The notes beneath the pieces are model-generated. The model was given only the letters and a program-made list of their open reading frames with translations, had not been told where the DNA came from and ran no database searches. 64,000 nucleotides of DNA from an uncultured Candidatus Rokubacteria bacterium (GTDB lineage: Bacteria; Methylomirabilota; Methylomirabilia; Rokubacteriales; CSP1-6): the NCBI GenBank assembly GCA_963754315.1, contig CAVWFS010000005.1, positions 190,384-254,383 of the forward strand, read 5' to 3'. The position numbers were made by a program, and so were the translations under genes. Below, piece by piece: positions 27,347 to 39,672 of this stretch (positions are counted from its first letter, which is position 1; every line of letters starts with the position of its first letter).

Positions 27347-27369
27347 TTGACAGATCAAGAAGACTTGAT
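27347..27369 (+). promoter_or_regulatory. Candidate arsR promoter and operator
   Basis: TTGACA (27347..27352) followed by the palindrome ATCAAG-AAGA-CTTGAT (27354..27369), abutting the arsR start. Confidence 0.45.
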
Positions 27370-27711
27370 ATGATGGTGCTTGGGATGTCACTCTCGCTCG
27401 GCAGGGACCTCGAGCAGGCTCAGCGCTGGTTTCACGCGCTGAGCGACGAGACCCGACTTCAGCTACTGGAGCTGCTGCGTGGCGGTGAGCAATGCGTGTG
27501 CGACCTCACCGACGCGCTCGACGCCGCCCAGTCCCGTCTCTCATTCCATCTCAAGACGCTGAAGGACGCCGGCTTGGTCACCGACCGGAAGCAAGGCCGG
27601 TGGGTGTATTACGCGCTGAATCCCCAGGTGTTCGACGAGATCACTGAGTTCATGACCGAGTTGCGCCCGAAGCCGACCAGCTTCCGGCTCGCGCCACGTC
27701 GATGCGACTGA
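27370..27711 (+). CDS. arsR: ArsR/SmtB family metalloregulator
   Basis: LSDETRLQLLELL...EQCVCDLTDAL (CVC As(III) site in the HTH), wHTH, HLKTLKDAGLV. Confidence 0.9.
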   Translation: MMVLGMSLSLGRDLEQAQRWFHALSDETRLQLLELLRGGEQCVCDLTDALDAAQSRLSFHLKTLKDAGLVTDRKQGRWVYYALNPQVFDEITEFMTELRPKPTSFRLAPRRCD

Positions 27712-27748: not shown

Positions 27749-27778
27749 GAGATGGCGGCCCACCGGATGGGTTGCTCT

Positions 27779-28220
27779 ATGAAGCCACGAGTGCTCTTCC
27801 TCTGCACCCACAACTCGGCCCGAAGCCAGATGGCCGAGGGGTACTTGCGTCACCTGGCCGGCGATCGGTTCGAGGTGGCCAGCGCCGGCACTGAGGCGCG
27901 CGGGGTGCACCCGTCGGCTGTGCGCGTCATGGCGGAGGATGGCATCGATATCTCCGGGCAACGCGCCAAGACGCTGGACCGATTTGTCAAAGAGACCTGG
28001 GATTACGTGGTGACAGTCTGCGACAGCGCGAACGAGGCCTGCCCGCTCTTTCCGAGAGCGGCGACGCGGCTGCACTGGAGCTTTGACGATCCGTCCCGGG
28101 CGCGCGGGAGTGATGAGGAGCAACATGACGGTGTTCCGCCGCGTGCGTGACGAGATCAAGACCGCGATAACGACGTGGCTGCAGCAATCCGCGATCCGCG
28201 TCGAGGCGGGGTCGTCATGA
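27779..28220 (+). CDS. arsC: Thioredoxin-coupled arsenate reductase (LMW-PTP type), apparent 1-nt frameshift near 28122
   Basis: VLFLCTHNSARSQMAEGY P-loop and VCDSANEAC cysteine pair. The conserved C-terminal helix MTVFRRVRDEIKTAITTWL lies in the +1 frame and ends in an ATGA overlap with the next gene. Confidence 0.8.
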
Positions 28221-28981
28221 CATCGGCCGCCGTCGATCCTCGAAACTTGAGCCGCCGTCTGGTGGCGGAAGGCGCGGGCACGGCGTTGCTGCTGGCCGCC
28301 GTCGTCGGATCGGGGATCATGGGTGAGCGGTTGGCCGGCGGCAACGTCGCCGTCGCCCTGCTCGCCAACACGCTCGCCACTGGCGCGGCGCTCGTCGCTC
28401 TCATCCTGACCTTCGGACCAATCTCCGGAGCCCACTTCAACCCCGCGGTGACCTTGGCCGACGCCTCCCAGGGAGGCCTGCCGTGGCGCGATGTCCCACC
28501 CTATCTCGCCGCCCAGGTGCTCGGAGCCTTCGCCGGGGTGGCCGCGGCCCACCTCATGTTCGGCGAGCCACTGTACTTCGCGTCTCGCCATGCGCGCGCG
28601 GGAGCGGCCCAGGCGTTCAGTGAGTTCGTGGCGACCTTCGGCCTGCTGGCCGTGATCTGGGGCTGCGTACGATCACGGGCTTCCGTGGTGGCATTCGCCG
28701 TCGCCGCGTACATCACCGCGGCGTACTGGTTCACGGCGTCCACCTCCTTCGCAAACCCGGCGGTCACGCTGGCCCGCTCGGCGAGCGACACCTTCGCGGG
28801 GATCCGCCCGGCAGATGCGCCGCTCTTCATCGTGGCTCAGCTCGCCGGCGCGGGGGCGGCCACCGCGCTGTTCCGCTGGCTGGTGCCGGCGCTGCCGACA
28901 GTCGCGTCAGCGGTGACCGTGCCGCCCGCTCTGGCCGACGACCGCGACGTACCCGCGGCACGGGCCAACCGTACGCGATGA
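28217..28981 (+). CDS. MIP-family aquaglyceroporin (AqpS/GlpF-like arsenite channel)
   Basis: Two NPA boxes (HFNPAVT, FANPAVT), six TM segments, located in the ars operon. Confidence 0.85.
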   Translation: MTSAAVDPRNLSRRLVAEGAGTALLLAAVVGSGIMGERLAGGNVAVALLANTLATGAALVALILTFGPISGAHFNPAVTLADASQGGLPWRDVPPYLAAQVLGAFAGVAAAHLMFGEPLYFASRHARAGAAQAFSEFVATFGLLAVIWGCVRSRASVVAFAVAAYITAAYWFTASTSFANPAVTLARSASDTFAGIRPADAPLFIVAQLAGAGAATALFRWLVPALPTVASAVTVPPALADDRDVPAARANRTR

Positions 28982-29015
28982 CTCTCCCAGGCCCATCGGC
29001 TCGATTCAGGAGGCT

Positions 29016-31319
29016 ATGGCGATGAACATTCGACGCAACACGACAGAGAACCCAGGGCTGCCCATCGCCGTCATCGGCGCGGGACCGATCGGGCTGGCCG
29101 CCGCCGCACACCTTGCGTCCCGGGGCCTGCCCTTCGTTGTCCTCGAGGCTGGTCAGTCGGTCGGCGCCCATGTGAGCGCGTGGAGCCACGTGCAGGTCTT
29201 CTCCCCCTGGCGGTACAACATCGATGCAGCGGCCGGAGCCATGCTCAAGGCAGCCGGCTGGAAGGAGCCGGATCGCGACGTGCTGCCCACTGGCGGCGAG
29301 CTAGTGGCGGAATACCTCCGCCCCCTCGGAGAGCTTCCCCAGATTGCTCCGCACGTGCGCCTGGGCACACGTGTCCTCGCCGTCGCTCGCGCCGGCTACG
29401 ACAAGATGAAGACAGCAGGGCGCGACCAGGCGCCCTTCGAGCTGCGCGTCCACTCCTTCGCCGGTGAGGAGAGGCAGCTCGCGCGGGCCGTCATCGATGC
29501 GTCGGGCACGTATGCGGTCCCCAATCCGCTGGGCGCCAACGGCCTGCCTGCGATCGGCGAGTCAGAATCCGGCTCACGCGTGTTTTACGGAATCCCCGAC
29601 GTTGGCGGGGTCCACCGTGGCCGCTATGCTCGGCGCGCTATCGTGGTCGTTGGCAGTGGGCACTCCGCGTTCAACACCTTGCTCGACCTGCACGATCTCG
29701 CCCTGGCCGAAGTGGGGACAACGATCACCTGGGCCGTGCGTCGGAGCGACATCGGTGCGATGTACGGCGGCGGCGATGCCGACACGCTCCCGGCCCGAGG
29801 CAGCCTGGGCGCCCGCCTGCGCCAGCTCGTCGAGTCGGGGCGGCTGCGCCTGGTGACCGGCTTTCTGACACGCGAGCTCCGGCGTGACGCAAAGCGGGTG
29901 AGCCTTGTCGACACGCAAGGCCGGACGCTCGGCCCATTCGACGAGATCATCGCCGTGACGGGATTTCGACCGGACCTGGCCATGCTGGGCGAGCTGCGTC
30001 TTGATCTCGATCCCGCCGTGGAGAGTCCACGGGCGCTCGCGCCGCTGATCGATCCTAACGTCCACAGCTGTGGCACCGTACCGCCGCACGGTGTCGAGGA
30101 GCTGCGCCAGCCCGAGACGAACTTCTTCGTGGTGGGGATGAAGAGCTACGGACGGGCGCCGACCTTTCTCATGCTCACCGGGTACGAGCAGGTGCGCTCG
30201 GTCGTGGCCGCCCTCGCCGGCGACTGGGAGTCGGCCCGGCGCATGGAGCTGACCTTGCCGCCCACAGGCGTGTGCTCATCGACGCCAATCGCCGGGACCC
30301 TGGCCACCGCATGCTGTGACACCACGGTGGCGGCGGAGGTCGCGACAGCCGCCGCCGCGACCGGCTGCTGTACGCCCTCTCCGGCGGACGACACGTCCGG
30401 CGCATGCTGTGCACCAGCTCCGGACGCGGCCGCAAGCGCATGCTGTGCCCCCGCACCAACACTCATCCCGAGCCTAGATCAGCCGAAAGCCAAGGAGACC
30501 ACCATGGAACGGACGGACGCGATCAAGGATGTCGTCAAGGCCAAGTACGGCGCCGCCGCCCTTCGCGTGGCAAGCGGAAGCACGTCCTGCTGCGGTGGCA
30601 CCACCTCCCGCTCAACTGCGGATCCCATCACCTCCAACCTCTATGGTGAGGAGACAGCGGAGGTTCCGCCCGAGGCGCTCGCCGCCTCGCTCGGATGCGG
30701 CAATCCAACCGCGCTCGCCGAATTGCGGGCGGGCGAAGTGGTGCTGGATCTCGGCTCGGGCGGTGGCATCGACGTCTTGCTCTCCGCCAGGCGGGTCGGG
30801 CCCGAGGGCAAGGCGTACGGGCTTGACATGACCGACGAGATGCTCGCTCTGGCGCGGGAGAACCAGCGCAAAGCGGGGGTCACCAACGTCGAGTTCCTCA
30901 AGGGGGAGATCGAGCACATGCCGCTGCCGAACGAAGCCGTGGACGTGATCATCTCCAACTGCGTGATCAACCTCTCGCCGGACAAGGACGCCGTCCTGGC
31001 CGAGGCCTTCCGGGTTCTGAAGCCCGGCGGCCGGGTGGCGGTTTCCGACGTGGTAGTCCGCGGAGAGGTGCCGGCCGCCGTGCGCAAGAGCGTCGAACTC
31101 TGGATCGGCTGTGTGGCCGGCGCCCTGGAGGAATCGGAGTACCGCGCGAAGCTGCAGAAGGCGGGCTTCGAGGCGATCGACATCGAGCCGACGCGCGTCT
31201 ACAGCGGCGAGAGCGCGCGGGAGCGCTTGTCTGCCGCGGGGCTGGATGCCGAGACGATCGCGAGCGTGGAGGGCAGGTTCATCAGCGCGTTCATCCGCGC
31301 GCGCAAGCCACAGCCATGA
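29016..31319 (+). CDS. arsM: Fusion protein: FAD/NAD(P)-binding flavoprotein (ArsO/FMO-like), Cys-pair-rich linker, then As(III) S-adenosylmethionine methyltransferase ArsM
   Basis: N-terminal part has AVIGAGPIGLAAA and VVVGSGHSAFN dinucleotide folds. The linker has four CC dyads. The C-terminal part has the four conserved ArsM cysteine contexts (SCCGG, LGCGNP, ISNCVINL, WIGCVAGA) and the SAM motif VLDLGSGGG. Confidence 0.8.
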   Translation: MAMNIRRNTTENPGLPIAVIGAGPIGLAAAAHLASRGLPFVVLEAGQSVGAHVSAWSHVQVFSPWRYNIDAAAGAMLKAAGWKEPDRDVLPTGGELVAEYLRPLGELPQIAPHVRLGTRVLAVARAGYDKMKTAGRDQAPFELRVHSFAGEERQLARAVIDASGTYAVPNPLGANGLPAIGESESGSRVFYGIPDVGGVHRGRYARRAIVVVGSGHSAFNTLLDLHDLALAEVGTTITWAVRRSDIGAMYGGGDADTLPARGSLGARLRQLVESGRLRLVTGFLTRELRRDAKRVSLVDTQGRTLGPFDEIIAVTGFRPDLAMLGELRLDLDPAVESPRALAPLIDPNVHSCGTVPPHGVEELRQPETNFFVVGMKSYGRAPTFLMLTGYEQVRSVVAALAGDWESARRMELTLPPTGVCSSTPIAGTLATACCDTTVAAEVATAAAATGCCTPSPADDTSGACCAPAPDAAASACCAPAPTLIPSLDQPKAKETTMERTDAIKDVVKAKYGAAALRVASGSTSCCGGTTSRSTADPITSNLYGEETAEVPPEALAASLGCGNPTALAELRAGEVVLDLGSGGGIDVLLSARRVGPEGKAYGLDMTDEMLALARENQRKAGVTNVEFLKGEIEHMPLPNEAVDVIISNCVINLSPDKDAVLAEAFRVLKPGGRVAVSDVVVRGEVPAAVRKSVELWIGCVAGALEESEYRAKLQKAGFEAIDIEPTRVYSGESARERLSAAGLDAETIASVEGRFISAFIRARKPQP

Positions 31320-31371: not shown

Positions 31372-31902
31372 ATGACCCGCCCCCCAATCACCACGCGGCT
31401 GGCGACGACGGCCGATGCCGCGCCCATCGCCGGGATCTACAACGAAGGCATCGCCGATCGCATCGCCACGTTCGAGACGGAGCCGCGAACGGCAGACCAG
31501 ATCGCGGCGCAGCTGGTCGACAAGGGCGATCGGTTCCCGACCGTGGTCGCGGAGCGAGAAGGCCGAATCGTGGCCTGGGCCAGCGCGGGGCCATACCGGA
31601 ATCGCCCCGCGTATGCCGGTGTGGCCGAGCACTCGGTCTACGTGGCCCGCGGCGACCGTGGCACCGGAGCTGGGCGGGCCGCCCTGGATGCACTCTGCCG
31701 CGCATACGACGAGCGCGGGTTCTGGAAGGTTGTCTCGCGCATCTTCCCCGAGAACACCGCGAGCCTCGCCCTCCATGAGCGCTGTGGGTTCCGTGTGGTT
31801 GGCGTTTATCGCCGCCACGGCCAGCTGGACGGCACGTTGCGCGACTGCGTCATCGTCGAGAAGCTCCTCGGCGACGACTCCCAGACTCAGACGTCGGCCT
31901 GA
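31372..31902 (+). CDS. arsN: GNAT acetyltransferase of the phosphinothricin/arsinothricin N-acetyltransferase type (ArsN1-like)
   Basis: PAT-family pattern IAGIYNEGI...ATFE...PYRNRPAYAGVAEHSVYV...ASLALHERCGF. Located inside the ars cluster. Confidence 0.7.
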   Translation: MTRPPITTRLATTADAAPIAGIYNEGIADRIATFETEPRTADQIAAQLVDKGDRFPTVVAEREGRIVAWASAGPYRNRPAYAGVAEHSVYVARGDRGTGAGRAALDALCRAYDERGFWKVVSRIFPENTASLALHERCGFRVVGVYRRHGQLDGTLRDCVIVEKLLGDDSQTQTSA

Positions 31903-31918
31903 TGGCAACGCCGATGCC

Positions 31919-33175
31919 ATGACGTGGAACCGCGGCGTACTGGCGATGTGCGCGGCGCAAGCCTCTGCCCAAATCGGCGCTTTCAGCGTCGCGGCGCTCC
32001 TTCCAACCCTCATTCCTGCCTGGTCACTCACCAACACGGAGGCGGGTTGGATCGGAGGCATCTACTACGCCGCCTACACGCTGGTCGTACCCGTGCTCTC
32101 CTCCCTCGCCGATCGCGTGGATCCGAAGCGCATCTATCTTGTCTCCGTGGCACTGACCGCCGTCGCGTTCGCCGGATTCGCCTGGGCCGCCACAGGATTC
32201 TGGTCAGCTTTGGCGTTTCGCGCCCTGATGGGTGCCGGCTGGGCCGGCAGCTACATGCCGGGGCTCAAGGCGCTGAGTGACTGCGCCGAAGGTCCGCAGC
32301 TGTCGCGCGCCGTCGCTGCCCACGCCGCGGCGGTCGGCGTCAGCGGCGCCCTCTCGTTCGGCGTGGCCGGGGCGGTCAACGCGTGGCTCGGCTGGCAGTG
32401 GGCCCTCGTGCCGGGCGCTCTGGGAGCTGGTCTGGCATTCGTACTCGTGCTGGTCGGCCTGCCCGCTCAGCCTCCGCGCGCCTCAGCGGGGCAGCGCGGT
32501 GCACTGCTCGACTTTCGCCCGATCTTTCGCAACCGGTCGGCACTGGCCTACTCCGTCGCGTACGCCGTGCACACGTGGGAAATGTCGGCACTCAGGGCGT
32601 GGGTGGTCACGTTTCTCACGTTTGCAGCCGCGCACAGCGCCGGCACATGGACACCCCTGGCGCCCGCAACCGTTGCCAGCATCATGGGGCTCCTCGGCGT
32701 ATGGGCCAGCATATGGGGTAACGAGCTGGCCATCCGGTTCGGACGCCGCCGGTTCATTCTCAGCACGATGCTCGCCTCGGCCGCGATGGCCGGCATGGTC
32801 GGCTTCAGCGCAGCGCTCCCGTATGCCGTTGCGGCGGCGCTGGTGCTCGTCTACGCCATGCTGATCTGGTCGGATTCCTCTTCACTGACGGCGGGGAGTG
32901 CCGGCAGCGCCGAGCCTGGCCGCCGCGGCGCGACGCTGGCCGTCCATTCAACGCTTGGCTACGCGGGTGGCTTTCTGGGGCCGCTGGCGCTGGGCGCGAC
33001 GCTCGACCTCGTCGGTGGCACAAGCGTAATCGGTTGGGGCATCGCGTTCGCCCATGTCACCGTCGCGGTGCTCGCCGGGTGGATCGCGTTCGTGTGGTTG
33101 CGGCCGGCCGACCTCGCCGGCGATCGCCCGGCGATCGTGCCGCCCTATGCGGCTGGCAACGCGCCACCGGCGTGA
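31919..33175 (+). CDS. MFS transporter (possible organoarsenical/metalloid efflux)
   Basis: About 12 TM segments and the MFS loop motif SLADRVDPKRIY. Last gene of the ars cluster. Substrate is inferred only from context. Confidence 0.75.
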   Translation: MTWNRGVLAMCAAQASAQIGAFSVAALLPTLIPAWSLTNTEAGWIGGIYYAAYTLVVPVLSSLADRVDPKRIYLVSVALTAVAFAGFAWAATGFWSALAFRALMGAGWAGSYMPGLKALSDCAEGPQLSRAVAAHAAAVGVSGALSFGVAGAVNAWLGWQWALVPGALGAGLAFVLVLVGLPAQPPRASAGQRGALLDFRPIFRNRSALAYSVAYAVHTWEMSALRAWVVTFLTFAAAHSAGTWTPLAPATVASIMGLLGVWASIWGNELAIRFGRRRFILSTMLASAAMAGMVGFSAALPYAVAAALVLVYAMLIWSDSSSLTAGSAGSAEPGRRGATLAVHSTLGYAGGFLGPLALGATLDLVGGTSVIGWGIAFAHVTVAVLAGWIAFVWLRPADLAGDRPAIVPPYAAGNAPPA

Positions 33176-39396: not shown

Positions 39397-39430
39397 CCCT
39401 GGTCCCCCCTCGAAGACCGGTTCAGCTGAT

Positions 39431-39587
39431 GCGCTCGGGTCGGTCTCCTGGCTTCCGGATCGTCCTACTCCCCGTGCCTTCCCAGCCCAACGCCAGTGGC
39501 ACTCTCGGGTTTCGTGCCCGGTTACAGTGACGGGGTCGCGGCGGATTCGCACCGCCTTCCCTGGGCCCTCATGGGCACCTCGAGCGC
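39431..39587 (-). promoter_or_regulatory. Cobalamin (B12) riboswitch
   Basis: The minus strand reads GCGCTCGAGGTGCCC..CAGGGAAGGCGGTGCGAATCCGCCGCGACCCCGTCACTGTAACCGGG..GCCACTGGCG..GGGAAGGC..GGAAGCCAGGAGACCGACCCGAGCGC. It has the conserved core, a B12 box (AAGCCAGGAGACCGACC) and closing P1 pairing GCGCTCG/CGAGCGC. Confidence 0.8.
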
Positions 39588-39672
39588 GACAACGCGATGA
39601 CACTAGCAGAGCCCTCGGGGTCCTCGCAACATGAATGCGTCACTCCGGTCTCGCGGTGGTGTCGGGAGAAGT

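What the first reader, a model, noticed from the sequence alone, without database searches (positions are those of the whole stretch)
29016..31319. Flavoprotein::ArsM fusion joined by a linker carrying four vicinal cysteine pairs
One 767-aa ORF combines a two-dinucleotide-fold flavoprotein (ArsO/FMO-like, ~430 aa) with a complete ArsM that has all four catalytic cysteine contexts. The linker is ~65 aa and rich in A/T/P: ..ACCDTT..GCCTPS..GACCAPAP..SACCAPAP.. At the DNA level it contains a 13-nt direct repeat GCGCATGCTGTGC at 30400 and 30436. Vicinal CC pairs are classic As(III) ligands. Physically coupling methylation to a flavin oxidoreductase suggests channelling of toxic trivalent methylarsenicals to an oxidation step, or redox recycling of the ArsM disulfides.
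Basis: partly seen in the sequence, partly recalled or inferred. Interest (0 to 1): 0.65.

Follow-up and report, generated by a model that had tools for sequence, protein, structure and literature searches.

The report
Arsenic methylase fused to ArsV-like flavoprotein
One gene in a soil bacterium's arsenic-resistance operon joins an arsenic-methylating enzyme to a flavin enzyme that most likely oxidises the toxic methylated product, through a flexible cysteine-pair tail that belongs to the flavin enzyme family itself.

Summary
ORF 29016..31319 (+) encodes 767 aa: a two-Rossmann flavoprotein (aa 1-420), a disordered A/T/P-rich segment with four Cys-Cys dyads (aa 421-496), and a complete ArsM (aa 497-767). 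The frame is real. More than 50 protein clusters from independent assemblies share the architecture, and contigs from three other soil metagenomes cross the junction without indels.

Two corrections:
- The flavoprotein is not ArsO (41 bits against a cut-off of 425). It belongs to a large ars-operon family that is probably ArsV, the published NADPH flavin monooxygenase that detoxifies methylarsenite, roxarsone(III) and Sb(III).
- The CC "linker" is not a fusion linker. Stand-alone family members, including a 51%-identical Ensifer protein encoded between arsR and arsK, end in the same tail with usually 1-4 dyads at 12-13-aa spacing, often at the very C-terminus as in MerA or TrxR.

Best reading (0.55): As(III) is methylated, and MAs(III) is passed by thiol exchange along the tail to Cys352/Cys420 and oxidised to MAs(V). 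The main rival is an NADPH-driven dithiol relay that re-reduces ArsM.

This is a new variant of known kinds, of moderate interest.

The parts
27347..27374 (+). Promoter-like site (TTGACA-16-TATGAT with TG) at the head of the ars operon
   Evidence: 11 of 12 matches, the only site in 6.6 kb (0.5 expected). This is a consensus match only.
27370..27711 (+). arsR (ArsR/SmtB metalloregulator)
   Evidence: HTH_5 at 63.8 bits. NF033788 at 101.5 bits (cut-off 55).
27752..28150 (+). arsC, thioredoxin-type LMW-PTP arsenate reductase, frameshifted in this window near 28122
   Evidence: TIGR02691 at 135 bits, below its cut-off of 174 because the C-terminus is missing; the canonical C-terminus FRRVRDEIK reads in the next frame; contigs of runs X1 and X5 lack one base at 28122.
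28175..28981 (+). MIP/aquaglyceroporin-type channel (probable As(III) channel)
   Evidence: PF00230 at 99 bits.
29016..31319 (+). Fusion ORF, 767 aa (the likelier start is ATG 29022)
29016..30275 (+). Flavoprotein catalytic part (aa 1-420). FAD motif GAGPIG is at aa 21-26 and NAD(P)H motif GSGHSA at aa 213-218. Invariant Cys352 (30069-30071, motif HSCGTVPPHG) and Cys420 (30273-30275, motif TGVCS).
30276..30503 (+). Disordered A/T/P-rich tail (aa 421-496). It carries four Cys-Cys dyads: 30312-30317, 30366-30371, 30405-30410 and 30441-30446.
   Evidence: One search gives positions and composition (A21 T12 P9 C8 of 76); pLDDT below 50. Searches show conservation in fused and stand-alone homologues.
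30385..30456 (+). Two tandem 36-nt (12-codon) units, 72% identical, that encode dyads 3 and 4. They contain the 13-nt repeat at 30400-30412 and 30436-30448.
   Evidence: TRF finds nothing at its threshold.
30492..30506 (+). AAGGAG, 6 nt, then ATG inside the ORF (read as K-E-T-T-M). This is a vestigial, or still used, ribosome-binding site and start codon of arsM.
   Evidence: sequence; the closest homologues keep KETTM, KEPAM or KETPM, while more distant fusions have lost it.
30504..31319 (+). ArsM domain (aa 497-767). SAM motif VLDLGSGGG. Catalytic Cys codons at 30588-30593 (C525/526), 30696-30698 (C561), 30960-30962 (C649) and 31110-31112 (C699).
   Evidence: NF008823 at 361 bits (cut-off 263); alignment to 5evj and 4fr0..
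31372..31902 (+). arsN1 (arsinothricin-resistance N-acetyltransferase, family A)
   Evidence: NF040503 at 205.6 bits (cut-off 170).
31919..33175 (+). MFS transporter (not ArsK or ArsJ by the NCBIfam models); last gene of the cassette
   Evidence: The same position is conserved in related loci.

Best explanation
The gene encodes a bifunctional arsenic-detoxifying enzyme in an arsR-arsC-MIP-(flavoprotein::arsM)-arsN1-MFS operon of a soil bacterium, probably Methylomirabilota/Rokubacteria.

The C-terminal half is an ordinary short bacterial ArsM. It binds As(III) on Cys649/Cys699 and methylates it with SAM, producing the very toxic MAs(III).

The N-terminal half belongs to the ars-associated FAD/NAD(P)H flavoprotein family that is most probably ArsV. 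ArsV is an NADPH- and O2-dependent flavin monooxygenase that oxidises MAs(III), and also roxarsone(III) and Sb(III), to the much less toxic pentavalent form.

This family has its own substrate-handling apparatus. Two invariant inner cysteines (Cys352 in HSCGTVPPHG, Cys420 in TGVCS) are followed by a disordered tail that ends in one or more vicinal Cys-Cys dyads.

Inferred mechanism: the dyads capture trivalent arsenicals by thiol exchange and swing them to the inner pair next to the flavin. There the hydroperoxyflavin oxidises As(III) to As(V), and As(V) no longer binds thiols and leaves. In the fusion the tail lies between the two catalytic domains, so it can take MAs(III) straight from the ArsM site. 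The net reaction would be As(III) + SAM + NADPH + O2 giving MAs(V).

Shown: the architecture, its conservation, the operon context and the flexibility of the tail. Inferred: the ArsV identity (indirect evidence), binding of arsenicals by the dyads, and hand-off between the domains.
For: Architecture and reality:
- The ORF and domains are as described.
- More than 50 clusters at 90% identity, 62-88% identical and covering 96-100% of the query, come from JGI, ENA and NCBI assemblies.
- A Rokubacteria MAG carries the same in-frame fusion.
- Independent contigs cross the junction without gaps.

The tail belongs to the flavoprotein:
- Stand-alone proteins of 440-485 aa end in TGVC plus 1-4 dyads at about 13-aa spacing.
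- Among 50%-identity representatives, 45 of 62 full-length members keep TGVC. Many end in CCG or CCA at or near the C-terminus.
- The Ensifer homologue has the same tail.

Family is ars-linked:
- Stand-alone genes sit next to arsR, arsI, MIP, arsN, arsC and an ArsK-like MFS.
- Plasmid copies in Ensifer, Hydrogenophaga, Arthrobacter and Pseudomonas lie in arsR-X-arsK/MFS or marR-arsN1-X modules.

Link to ArsV:
- ArsV is described as a flavin monooxygenase conferring MAs(III), Rox(III) and Sb(III) resistance, placed next to marR and the aio/ars genes in Achromobacter As-55.
- That gene, HLG70_07515, is annotated 'FAD-dependent oxidoreductase'. This is the same PGAP name and neighbourhood type as the homologues here.
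- The fold is a two-dinucleotide-binding flavoprotein, with small FMOs and N-hydroxylases among the top matches.

Flexibility: pLDDT is below 50 for 415-495 and 415-544, with pTM 0.48.

Evolvability: P0002 has the tail and junction duplicated, giving 8 dyads.

An aerobic detoxification context fits an O2-dependent enzyme: co-occurrence with the dioxygenase-type ArsI and aerobic hosts.
Against: - No published ArsV sequence could be obtained, so membership rests on context and annotation, not on alignment to a characterised protein.
- Structure and sequence searches cannot tell a monooxygenase from a reductase. The best Foldseek match is the bacillithiol-disulfide reductase YpdA, and TrxR-like proteins rank alongside FMOs. 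The model is poor around Cys352.
- A C-terminal vicinal Cys arm is known from reductases (MerA, high-Mr TrxR; established knowledge), not from flavin monooxygenases.
- The same flavoprotein is also found fused to ArsC, ArsN-like GNAT, ArsR and an MFS. Fusion to an operon neighbour therefore need not mean substrate channelling.
- Rapid oxidation of MAs(III) would compete with further methylation by ArsM.
Confidence: 0.55

Rival explanations
1. Dedicated NAD(P)H-dependent dithiol relay. The flavoprotein is a TrxR/MerA-style reductase. The flavin reduces the inner Cys352/Cys420 pair, which reduces the vicinal disulfides of the tail. The tail then acts as a built-in thioredoxin that re-reduces the catalytic disulfide formed in ArsM at each turnover. 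In the ArsC fusion it would do the same for the Trx-type arsenate reductase.
For: - The best structural match is the disulfide reductase YpdA/Bdr, with TrxR-like proteins close behind. The best NCBIfam match is YpdA.
- JGI pipelines call the family 'thioredoxin reductase'.
- A terminal vicinal Cys pair on a flexible tail is the hallmark of high-Mr TrxR and MerA (established knowledge).
- Two fusion partners, ArsM and Trx-type ArsC, both form disulfides that need thioredoxin (established knowledge of ArsM and pI258-type ArsC).
Against: - There is no CxxC or CxxxxC redox motif. The only cysteines in the catalytic part are C352 and C420, 68 residues apart.
- The YpdA score is 48.7 bits against a cut-off of 339.9, and no TrxR model matches.
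- An Arthrobacter plasmid encodes a normal trxB and a thioredoxin next to the flavoprotein.
- Many stand-alone loci have no ArsM.
- The family is also fused to ArsR and GNAT proteins, which need no reductant.
- The published phenotype of the probable family prototype is oxidation of MAs(III).
Confidence: 0.2
2. Neighbour fusion without channelling. Both halves work independently, as ArsM and as an ArsV-like enzyme with its own capture tail. The fusion only guarantees co-expression and arose by loss of a stop codon between adjacent genes. ArsM may even still be made separately from the internal AAGGAG-ATG.
For: - An internal ribosome-binding site and start codon are retained at 30492-30506 and kept in the closest homologues.
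- The family fuses promiscuously with whichever ars gene is adjacent: ArsC, GNAT, ArsR or MFS.
- Fused and stand-alone forms are interleaved in a rough NJ tree, and P0072 is a derivative that has lost ArsM.
- A Nakamurella MAG has the two genes adjacent but separate.
- AlphaFold gives no confident inter-domain packing.
Against: - The fusion is maintained over 62-88% identity in more than 50 clusters.
- Fused forms mostly keep four dyads (39 of 49), while most stand-alone forms have one (39 of 69). This suggests the longer tail is selected for in the fused state.
Confidence: 0.15
3. Artefact: two ordinary genes joined by a sequencing or assembly indel.
For: The same window does contain a 1-nt insertion that breaks arsC at 28122, so indel errors or mutations occur in this sequence.
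Against: - Independent contigs from three other samples cross 30173-30594 with 0 gaps.
- More than 50 fused clusters come from unrelated assemblies.
- There is a fused gene in a GTDB Rokubacteria MAG.
- The other two frames are closed across the junction.
Confidence: 0.02

Closest known systems
[quoted passage not shown] 2022, Environ Microbiol 24:752; Chen et al. 2021, Environ Microbiol 23:7550; cited)
   Same: - Both are ars-operon FAD/NAD(P)H flavoproteins annotated 'FAD-dependent oxidoreductase'.
- Both are found next to marR, arsR and arsK-type genes and near aio genes.
- The fold resembles small FMOs.
   Different: - Here the flavoprotein is covalently fused to ArsM.
- Identity to a characterised ArsV could not be measured, because those papers and sequences are not held.
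- As far as I could find, the Cys-Cys tail and the invariant Cys352/Cys420 have not been described for ArsV.
ArsM / AS3MT (As(III) S-adenosylmethionine methyltransferase; structures 4fr0 and 5evj)
   Same: - It passes the NCBIfam cut-off.
- It has the SAM motif and all four catalytic cysteine positions.
   Different: - It is the short bacterial form, 271 aa, without the C-terminal domain of the algal enzymes.
- It carries a 496-aa N-terminal flavoprotein plus tail.
Other ArsM fusions: ArsR-ArsM 'ArsRM' of Brevundimonas sp. M20 (PMC10190100); ArsM-SelD in Naegleria (PMC5552862); and the ArsM/AhpD and ArsM/DUF2284 selenoproteins (NCBIfam NF041537, NF041536)
   Same: ArsM recruited into a multidomain protein together with a functionally related partner.
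   Different: The partner here is a flavin oxidoreductase. None of the listed fusions couples methylation to a redox flavoenzyme through a Cys-rich tether.
Mercuric reductase MerA (C-terminal Cys558-Cys559) and high-Mr thioredoxin reductase (C-terminal GCUG or SCCS); established knowledge
   Same: - A pyridine-nucleotide flavoprotein with a flexible C-terminal arm.
- The arm ends in a vicinal Cys pair that shuttles a soft metal or redox equivalents to an inner cysteine pair.
- Many stand-alone family members end in ...CCG or ...CCA.
   Different: - It has a different fold subclass (TrxR-like/FMO-like two-domain protein, not the glutathione-reductase family).
- It has no CxxxxC next to the flavin.
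- The arm is repeated up to 8 times.
- The probable chemistry is oxidation, not reduction.
ArsO (NF040505) and ArsH
   Same: ars-linked flavoproteins proposed or shown to act on organoarsenicals.
   Different: - ArsO model: 41 bits against a cut-off of 425.
- ArsH is an FMN flavodoxin-like protein, which is unrelated.
ArsD metallochaperone (vicinal pairs Cys12-13, Cys112-113, Cys119-120; established knowledge)
   Same: Vicinal cysteine pairs used to bind As(III) and hand it to a partner protein by thiol exchange.
   Different: ArsD is a small folded thioredoxin-like protein serving the ArsA ATPase. Here the dyads sit in a disordered repeat attached to an enzyme.

Membership tests
ArsM (arsenite S-adenosylmethionine methyltransferase) | Score above the curated family cut-off | tested here: met
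   NF008823 scores 361.1 bits against a cut-off of 263, over aa 499-766.
ArsM (arsenite S-adenosylmethionine methyltransferase) | Four conserved catalytic cysteines (CmArsM C44, C72, C174, C224) and the SAM-binding GxGxG motif | tested here: met
   C525/526, C561, C649 and C699 lie in SCCG, GCGNP, SNCVINL and GCVAGAL. VLDLGSGGG is present. All align to 5evj.
ArsM (arsenite S-adenosylmethionine methyltransferase) | As(III) methylation activity | not testable with these tools
   Needs an enzyme assay.
ArsV (MAs(III)/Rox(III)/Sb(III)-oxidising flavin monooxygenase) | Sequence homology to an experimentally characterised ArsV | tested here: inconclusive
   No ArsV sequence or paper was obtainable, and no source names any cluster member ArsV. 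Indirect evidence:
- 51% identity over the full length to the Ensifer adhaerens protein encoded between arsR and arsK.
- Achromobacter arsV is a 'FAD-dependent oxidoreductase' beside marR and aio.
- A homologue lies in a marR-arsN1-X module.
ArsV (MAs(III)/Rox(III)/Sb(III)-oxidising flavin monooxygenase) | FAD and NAD(P)H dinucleotide-binding motifs | tested here: met
   GAGPIG at aa 21-26 and GSGHSA at aa 213-218 are invariant in 44 and 58 sequences. Pyr_redox_3 scores 55.9 bits.
ArsV (MAs(III)/Rox(III)/Sb(III)-oxidising flavin monooxygenase) | Location in ars operons or islands | tested here: met
   One stand-alone member (P0078) is outside an ars context.
ArsV (MAs(III)/Rox(III)/Sb(III)-oxidising flavin monooxygenase) | NADPH- and O2-dependent oxidation of trivalent organoarsenicals | not testable with these tools
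   Needs biochemistry.
ArsO family flavin monooxygenase (NF040505) | Score above the curated cut-off | tested here: not met
   41.4 bits against a cut-off of 425. Only the N-terminal 213 residues match.
Low-Mr thioredoxin reductase / YpdA bacillithiol-disulfide reductase | Family model above cut-off, and for TrxR a redox-active CxxC in the NADPH domain | tested here: not met
   TIGR04018 scores 48.7 bits against a cut-off of 339.9. There is no TrxR hit for the window protein. There is no CxxC: the only cysteines in aa 1-420 are C352 and C420.
MerA / high-Mr TrxR type (glutathione-reductase family with a C-terminal vicinal Cys arm) | CxxxxC redox pair beside the flavin, plus a C-terminal vicinal Cys (or Sec) pair | tested here: not met
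   Vicinal pairs on a flexible tail are present, but CxxxxC is absent. No MerA or GR structures appear among the top 50 Foldseek matches. The resemblance is functional analogy only.

The most novel reading that the evidence does not exclude
The flavoprotein is not an oxidase. It would be a MerA/TrxR-style metalloid reductase that uses NADPH, the inner Cys352/Cys420 pair and the vicinal-Cys arm to reduce pentavalent methylarsenate to MAs(III). No gene for this activity had been identified when PMC4457076 was written in 2015.

Fused to ArsM, it would regenerate the trivalent substrate for successive methylations. Next to ArsI in the stand-alone loci, it would supply MAs(III) for demethylation.

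The evidence does not exclude this: the fold cannot tell oxidase from reductase, C-terminal vicinal Cys arms are known only from reductases, and the ArsV identity is indirect.
Probability: 0.08. Interest if true: 0.85.

Novelty: new variant of a known kind. Interest (0 to 1): 0.55.

Why it matters
Methylation turns arsenite into methylarsenite, which is more toxic than the starting material. Whether ArsM serves aerobic bacteria as a detoxifier or as an antibiotic producer is debated.

A natural, widely maintained fusion of ArsM to a probable methylarsenite oxidase would show that some soil lineages (Methylomirabilota/Rokubacteria-like) commit methylation directly to the harmless pentavalent product. 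It predicts that they release MAs(V) rather than MAs(III) or volatile arsines, which bears on arsenic speciation in soils and rice paddies.

The finding also points to a previously unremarked module of the flavoprotein family: two invariant inner cysteines plus a repeated vicinal-cysteine tail. That module gives a concrete, mutable handle on how these enzymes acquire thiol-bound arsenicals. It is also a possible natural example of a swinging arm that carries a metalloid between two active sites.

Tried and rejected
- PDB sequence search with the flavoprotein half gave only weak FMO and YpdA matches. Foldseek on a pLDDT-70 model placed it in the TrxR-like/FMO/N-hydroxylase superfamily, with TM-scores normalised to query length of 0.22-0.32. 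Neither decides oxidase versus reductase.
- NCBIfam has no model for the family. ArsO and YpdA are both far below their cut-offs.
- The ArsV, ArsV/ArsW, ArsZ and ArsK papers are not held.
- Two literature searches returned mostly irrelevant hits: the bare word ArsV, and terms for an ArsM-oxidoreductase fusion. No paper on this fusion was found.
- Cluster look-up gave only generic names: 'FAD-dependent oxidoreductase', 'thioredoxin reductase', 'SAM-dependent methyltransferase'. The exact window protein is not in the collection.
- Tandem Repeats Finder reported nothing in the tail. The repeat is visible only as two 36-nt units 72% alike and at the peptide level.
- Full-length AlphaFold gave no confident inter-domain arrangement (pTM 0.48), so it says nothing about channelling geometry.
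- A rough NJ tree could not resolve a single origin of the fusion from multiple origins.
- Rejected: the sequencing-artefact reading; ArsO membership; the 'linker evolved for the fusion' reading.
Full report
**1. The observation**

The window carries an open reading frame at 29016..31319 on the + strand, 767 aa.
- Pfam places a pyridine-nucleotide flavoprotein signature (Pyr_redox_3, 55.9 bits) on aa 17-331 and SAM-methyltransferase domains on aa 566-744.
- NCBIfam places the arsenite methyltransferase model NF008823 on aa 499-766, at 361 bits against a cut-off of 263.
- Aligned to the solved ArsMs 5evj and 4fr0, the domain has the SAM motif and the four catalytic cysteine positions: C525/526, C561, C649 and C699.

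Between the two domains, aa 421-496 are made of A21 T12 P9 C8 out of 76 residues. They hold four Cys-Cys dyads at 433/434, 451/452, 464/465 and 476/477.

The 13-nt repeat occurs only at 30400 and 30436 in the whole window. It is part of two tandem 12-codon units that are 72% identical. The protein has only 15 cysteines, and all are at positions conserved in homologues.

**2. Is the fusion real?**

Yes, on four grounds.
- The other two frames are closed across the junction, and GC3 stays high along the ORF.
- A search of 5.8 billion proteins returned more than 50 clusters (90% identity level) of 700-860 aa. They cover 96-100% of the query at 62-88% identity and come from JGI, ENA and NCBI assemblies.
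- A Rokubacteria MAG among the GTDB species representatives has the same in-frame gene.
- Contigs from three other soil metagenomes cover 30173-30594 with substitutions only and no gaps.

This check was worth making. The same window does contain a 1-nt insertion at 28122 that breaks the neighbouring arsC, and related reads lack that base.

**3. What the Cys-rich stretch really is**

The stretch is not a linker invented by the fusion.
- Stand-alone relatives of the flavoprotein (440-485 aa) end with the same conserved ...LTLPxTGVCS... motif. It is followed by a low-complexity tail that carries usually one to four dyads, mostly 12-13 residues apart. The last one typically reads CC(A/G)xP.PTL...GLGRK and then a stop.
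- A scan of 1.84 billion 50%-identity representatives found 918 family members at E <= 1e-30. Among 62 full-length ones, 45 keep TGVC. Many terminate in ...CCG...CCA or ...CC.
- A proteobacterial homologue only 51% identical (Ensifer adhaerens plasmid) has the same tail.
- Within the catalytic part only two cysteines exist, and both are invariant: Cys352 in the almost invariant IDPNVHSCGTVPPHG, and Cys420 in TGVCS.
- AlphaFold predicts the tail as disordered, with pLDDT below 50 for 415-495 alone and 415-544 in the full-length model (pTM 0.48).

The fusion therefore arose by read-through of the flavoprotein's stop codon into an adjacent arsM. The junction still carries AAGGAG, 6 nt and ATG (30492-30506), now read as K-E-T-T-M. 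The closest homologues keep this and more distant ones do not. Fused forms mostly have four dyads (39 of 49), while most stand-alone forms have one (39 of 69). One relative has the whole tail and junction duplicated, giving eight dyads.

**4. What the flavoprotein is**

It is not ArsO: NF040505 scores 41 bits against a cut-off of 425. It is not a YpdA or TrxR member either: TIGR04018 scores 48.7 bits against 339.9, and there is no CxxC. By fold it is a two-dinucleotide-binding-domain flavoprotein. YpdA, TrxR-like ferredoxin reductases, small FMOs and N-hydroxylating monooxygenases all match about equally.

Its gene neighbourhood is consistent.
- Window: arsR-arsC-MIP-fusion-arsN1-MFS.
- A related fused locus: arsR-fusion-arsC-MIP-arsN-MFS.
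- Stand-alone loci: (ArsK-like MFS, divergent) flavoprotein-arsR-arsI-MIP-(MFS)-arsN-arsC-MFS.
- Plasmids: arsR-X-arsK in Ensifer and arsR-X-MFS in Hydrogenophaga. Arthrobacter has arsC-trxB-X-arsC-LMWP-MFS, and Pseudomonas nitroreducens has marR-arsN1-X-arsD-arsA.

[quoted passage not shown] In Achromobacter As-55 it lies next to a MarR_ars repressor near the aio/ars genes, and MarR_ars genes lie upstream of arsV or arsN in many bacteria. The As-55 arsV (HLG70_07515) is annotated 'FAD-dependent oxidoreductase', as are the homologues found here.

From memory, which I could not check because the papers are not held, ArsV was first cloned from Ensifer adhaerens ST2. I therefore assign the domain to the ArsV family as probable, at roughly 70-75%, not as proven.

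**5. Mechanism**

Best-supported reading (0.55):
- ArsM methylates As(III).
- The product MAs(III), a strong dithiol binder, is taken over by the neighbouring vicinal dyads through thiol exchange.
- It is carried to the inner Cys352/Cys420 site beside the flavin and oxidised by the NADPH/O2-generated hydroperoxyflavin.
- MAs(V) does not bind thiols and is released, and possibly exported by the downstream MFS.

The tail is thus the flavoprotein's own capture arm. It is analogous to the C-terminal Cys558/559 of MerA, which strips Hg(II) from cellular thiols (established knowledge). In the fusion it happens to sit between two active sites.

What is shown: the architecture, its conservation, the operon context and the flexibility of the tail. 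What is inferred: arsenical binding by the dyads, the role of C352/C420, the direction of the redox chemistry, and any channelling.

**6. Rivals**

(a) An NADPH-driven dithiol relay that re-reduces ArsM, and ArsC in the P0109 fusion (0.2).
- For: the reductase-like top structural matches, and the fact that vicinal-Cys arms are otherwise known only from reductases.
- Against: there is no CxxC or CxxxxC motif. A normal trxB and thioredoxin are encoded next to the gene in Arthrobacter. Many loci have no ArsM. The family is also fused to ArsR and GNAT proteins. The published phenotype is oxidation.

(b) A neutral neighbour fusion without channelling (0.15).
- For: the family fuses with whichever ars gene is adjacent. 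The RBS and start codon are retained. Fused and stand-alone forms are interleaved in a rough tree. A derivative has lost ArsM (P0072). The two genes are separate but adjacent in a Nakamurella MAG.

(c) Artefact (0.02). This is refuted.

The most novel reading not excluded is a MerA-style reductase of pentavalent methylarsenate (0.08).

**7. Comparison with what is known, and novelty**

Both halves belong to known kinds: ArsM certainly and ArsV probably. Fusions among ars genes are common, for example ArsR-ArsC, MIP-ArsC, ArsN-ArsC/D and Acr3-ArsC, and ArsRM. I found no description of a flavoprotein::ArsM fusion, nor of the TGVC plus vicinal-Cys tail as a family feature. Public pipelines only give generic double names such as 'SAM-dependent methyltransferase/thioredoxin reductase'.

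I rate it a new variant of a known kind, with interest 0.55. A specialist would find it a neat and testable natural experiment on whether aerobic methylation is committed to detoxification, and a lead to how ArsV-type enzymes acquire substrate. It is not a new principle.

**8. Source organism**

The source is probably a soil Methylomirabilota/Rokubacteria-like bacterium.
- The window has 66.5% G+C.
- The closest fused gene in a species representative is in a Rokubacteria MAG, at 74% identity.
- The closest stand-alone ArsMs (77-80%) are in Methylomirabilota MAGs.
- The runs holding near-identical sequence are mostly soil metagenomes.

Noticed in passing
window 27752-28210 (indel at 28122): arsC is frameshifted. 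The annotated frame ends ...GSDEEQHDGVPPRA*, while the next frame reads the canonical ...FRRVRDEIKTAITTWLQQ. Contigs of two independent soil runs lack one base at 28122, so relatives have an intact arsC. This is either an assembly indel or a strain-specific mutation.
   Followed up: yes
window 30492-30506: A perfect AAGGAG, 6-nt spacer and ATG lie inside the fusion ORF, just before the ArsM domain. This is a relic of the former arsM start, and free ArsM might still be translated from it. The closest homologues conserve it as KETTM, KEPAM or KETPM.
   Followed up: partly
window 29008-29024: AGGAGG is only 2 nt from ATG 29016 but 8 nt from ATG 29022. The real start of the fusion gene is probably 29022 (MNIRR...).
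   Followed up: no
P0002 (859 aa), P0048 (838 aa), P0072 (474 aa): - P0002 has an exact tandem duplication of the tail plus junction (about 85 aa), giving eight dyads.
- P0048 has a stretched tail with five dyads at 23-32-aa spacing.
- P0072 is a flavoprotein plus tail joined directly to the last 10 residues of ArsM (...ISAFIRARKPVA), which is a deletion derivative of a fusion.
   Followed up: partly
L001 6001-7986 (P0109); P0137, P0139, P0151, P0154: The same flavoprotein family is fused to other ars-operon proteins:
- to a Trx-type ArsC at its C-terminus, after four dyads (P0109);
- to GNAT (ArsN-like) or ArsR at its N-terminus;
- possibly to an MFS transporter.
   Followed up: partly
L026 6836-9708 (Nakamurella MAG): An actinobacterial homologue (52% identity) has no CC tail, ending ...TGACNATRAAV.... 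It is followed about 520 nt downstream by a separate arsM in another frame. This is the unfused state of the gene pair.
   Followed up: partly
L064 6842-7933 (Acidobacteriota MAG): A stand-alone ArsM has its own N-terminal extension carrying CCGPDCC motifs, repeated at the normal N-terminal Cys site. Cys-rich capture segments also occur on ArsM itself in other lineages.
   Followed up: no
L002-L007 (loci of stand-alone flavoproteins): Conserved cassette: a divergent ArsK-like MFS (265 bits, below the ArsK cut-off of 400), then flavoprotein, ArsR, ArsI/CadI-type glyoxalase (124 bits, cut-off 116), MIP, (MFS), ArsN, ArsC and MFS. It looks like an organoarsenical-resistance island without ArsM.
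   Followed up: partly
window 39421-39598 (-): Cobalamin riboswitch, Rfam RF00174, 101 bits (gathering score 31.5). It is unrelated to the ars operon.
   Followed up: no
window 27347-27374 (+): A near-consensus sigma-70-like promoter (TTGACA-16-TATGAT with an extended -10 TG) overlaps the annotated arsR start. arsR may start further downstream or be leaderless.
   Followed up: no
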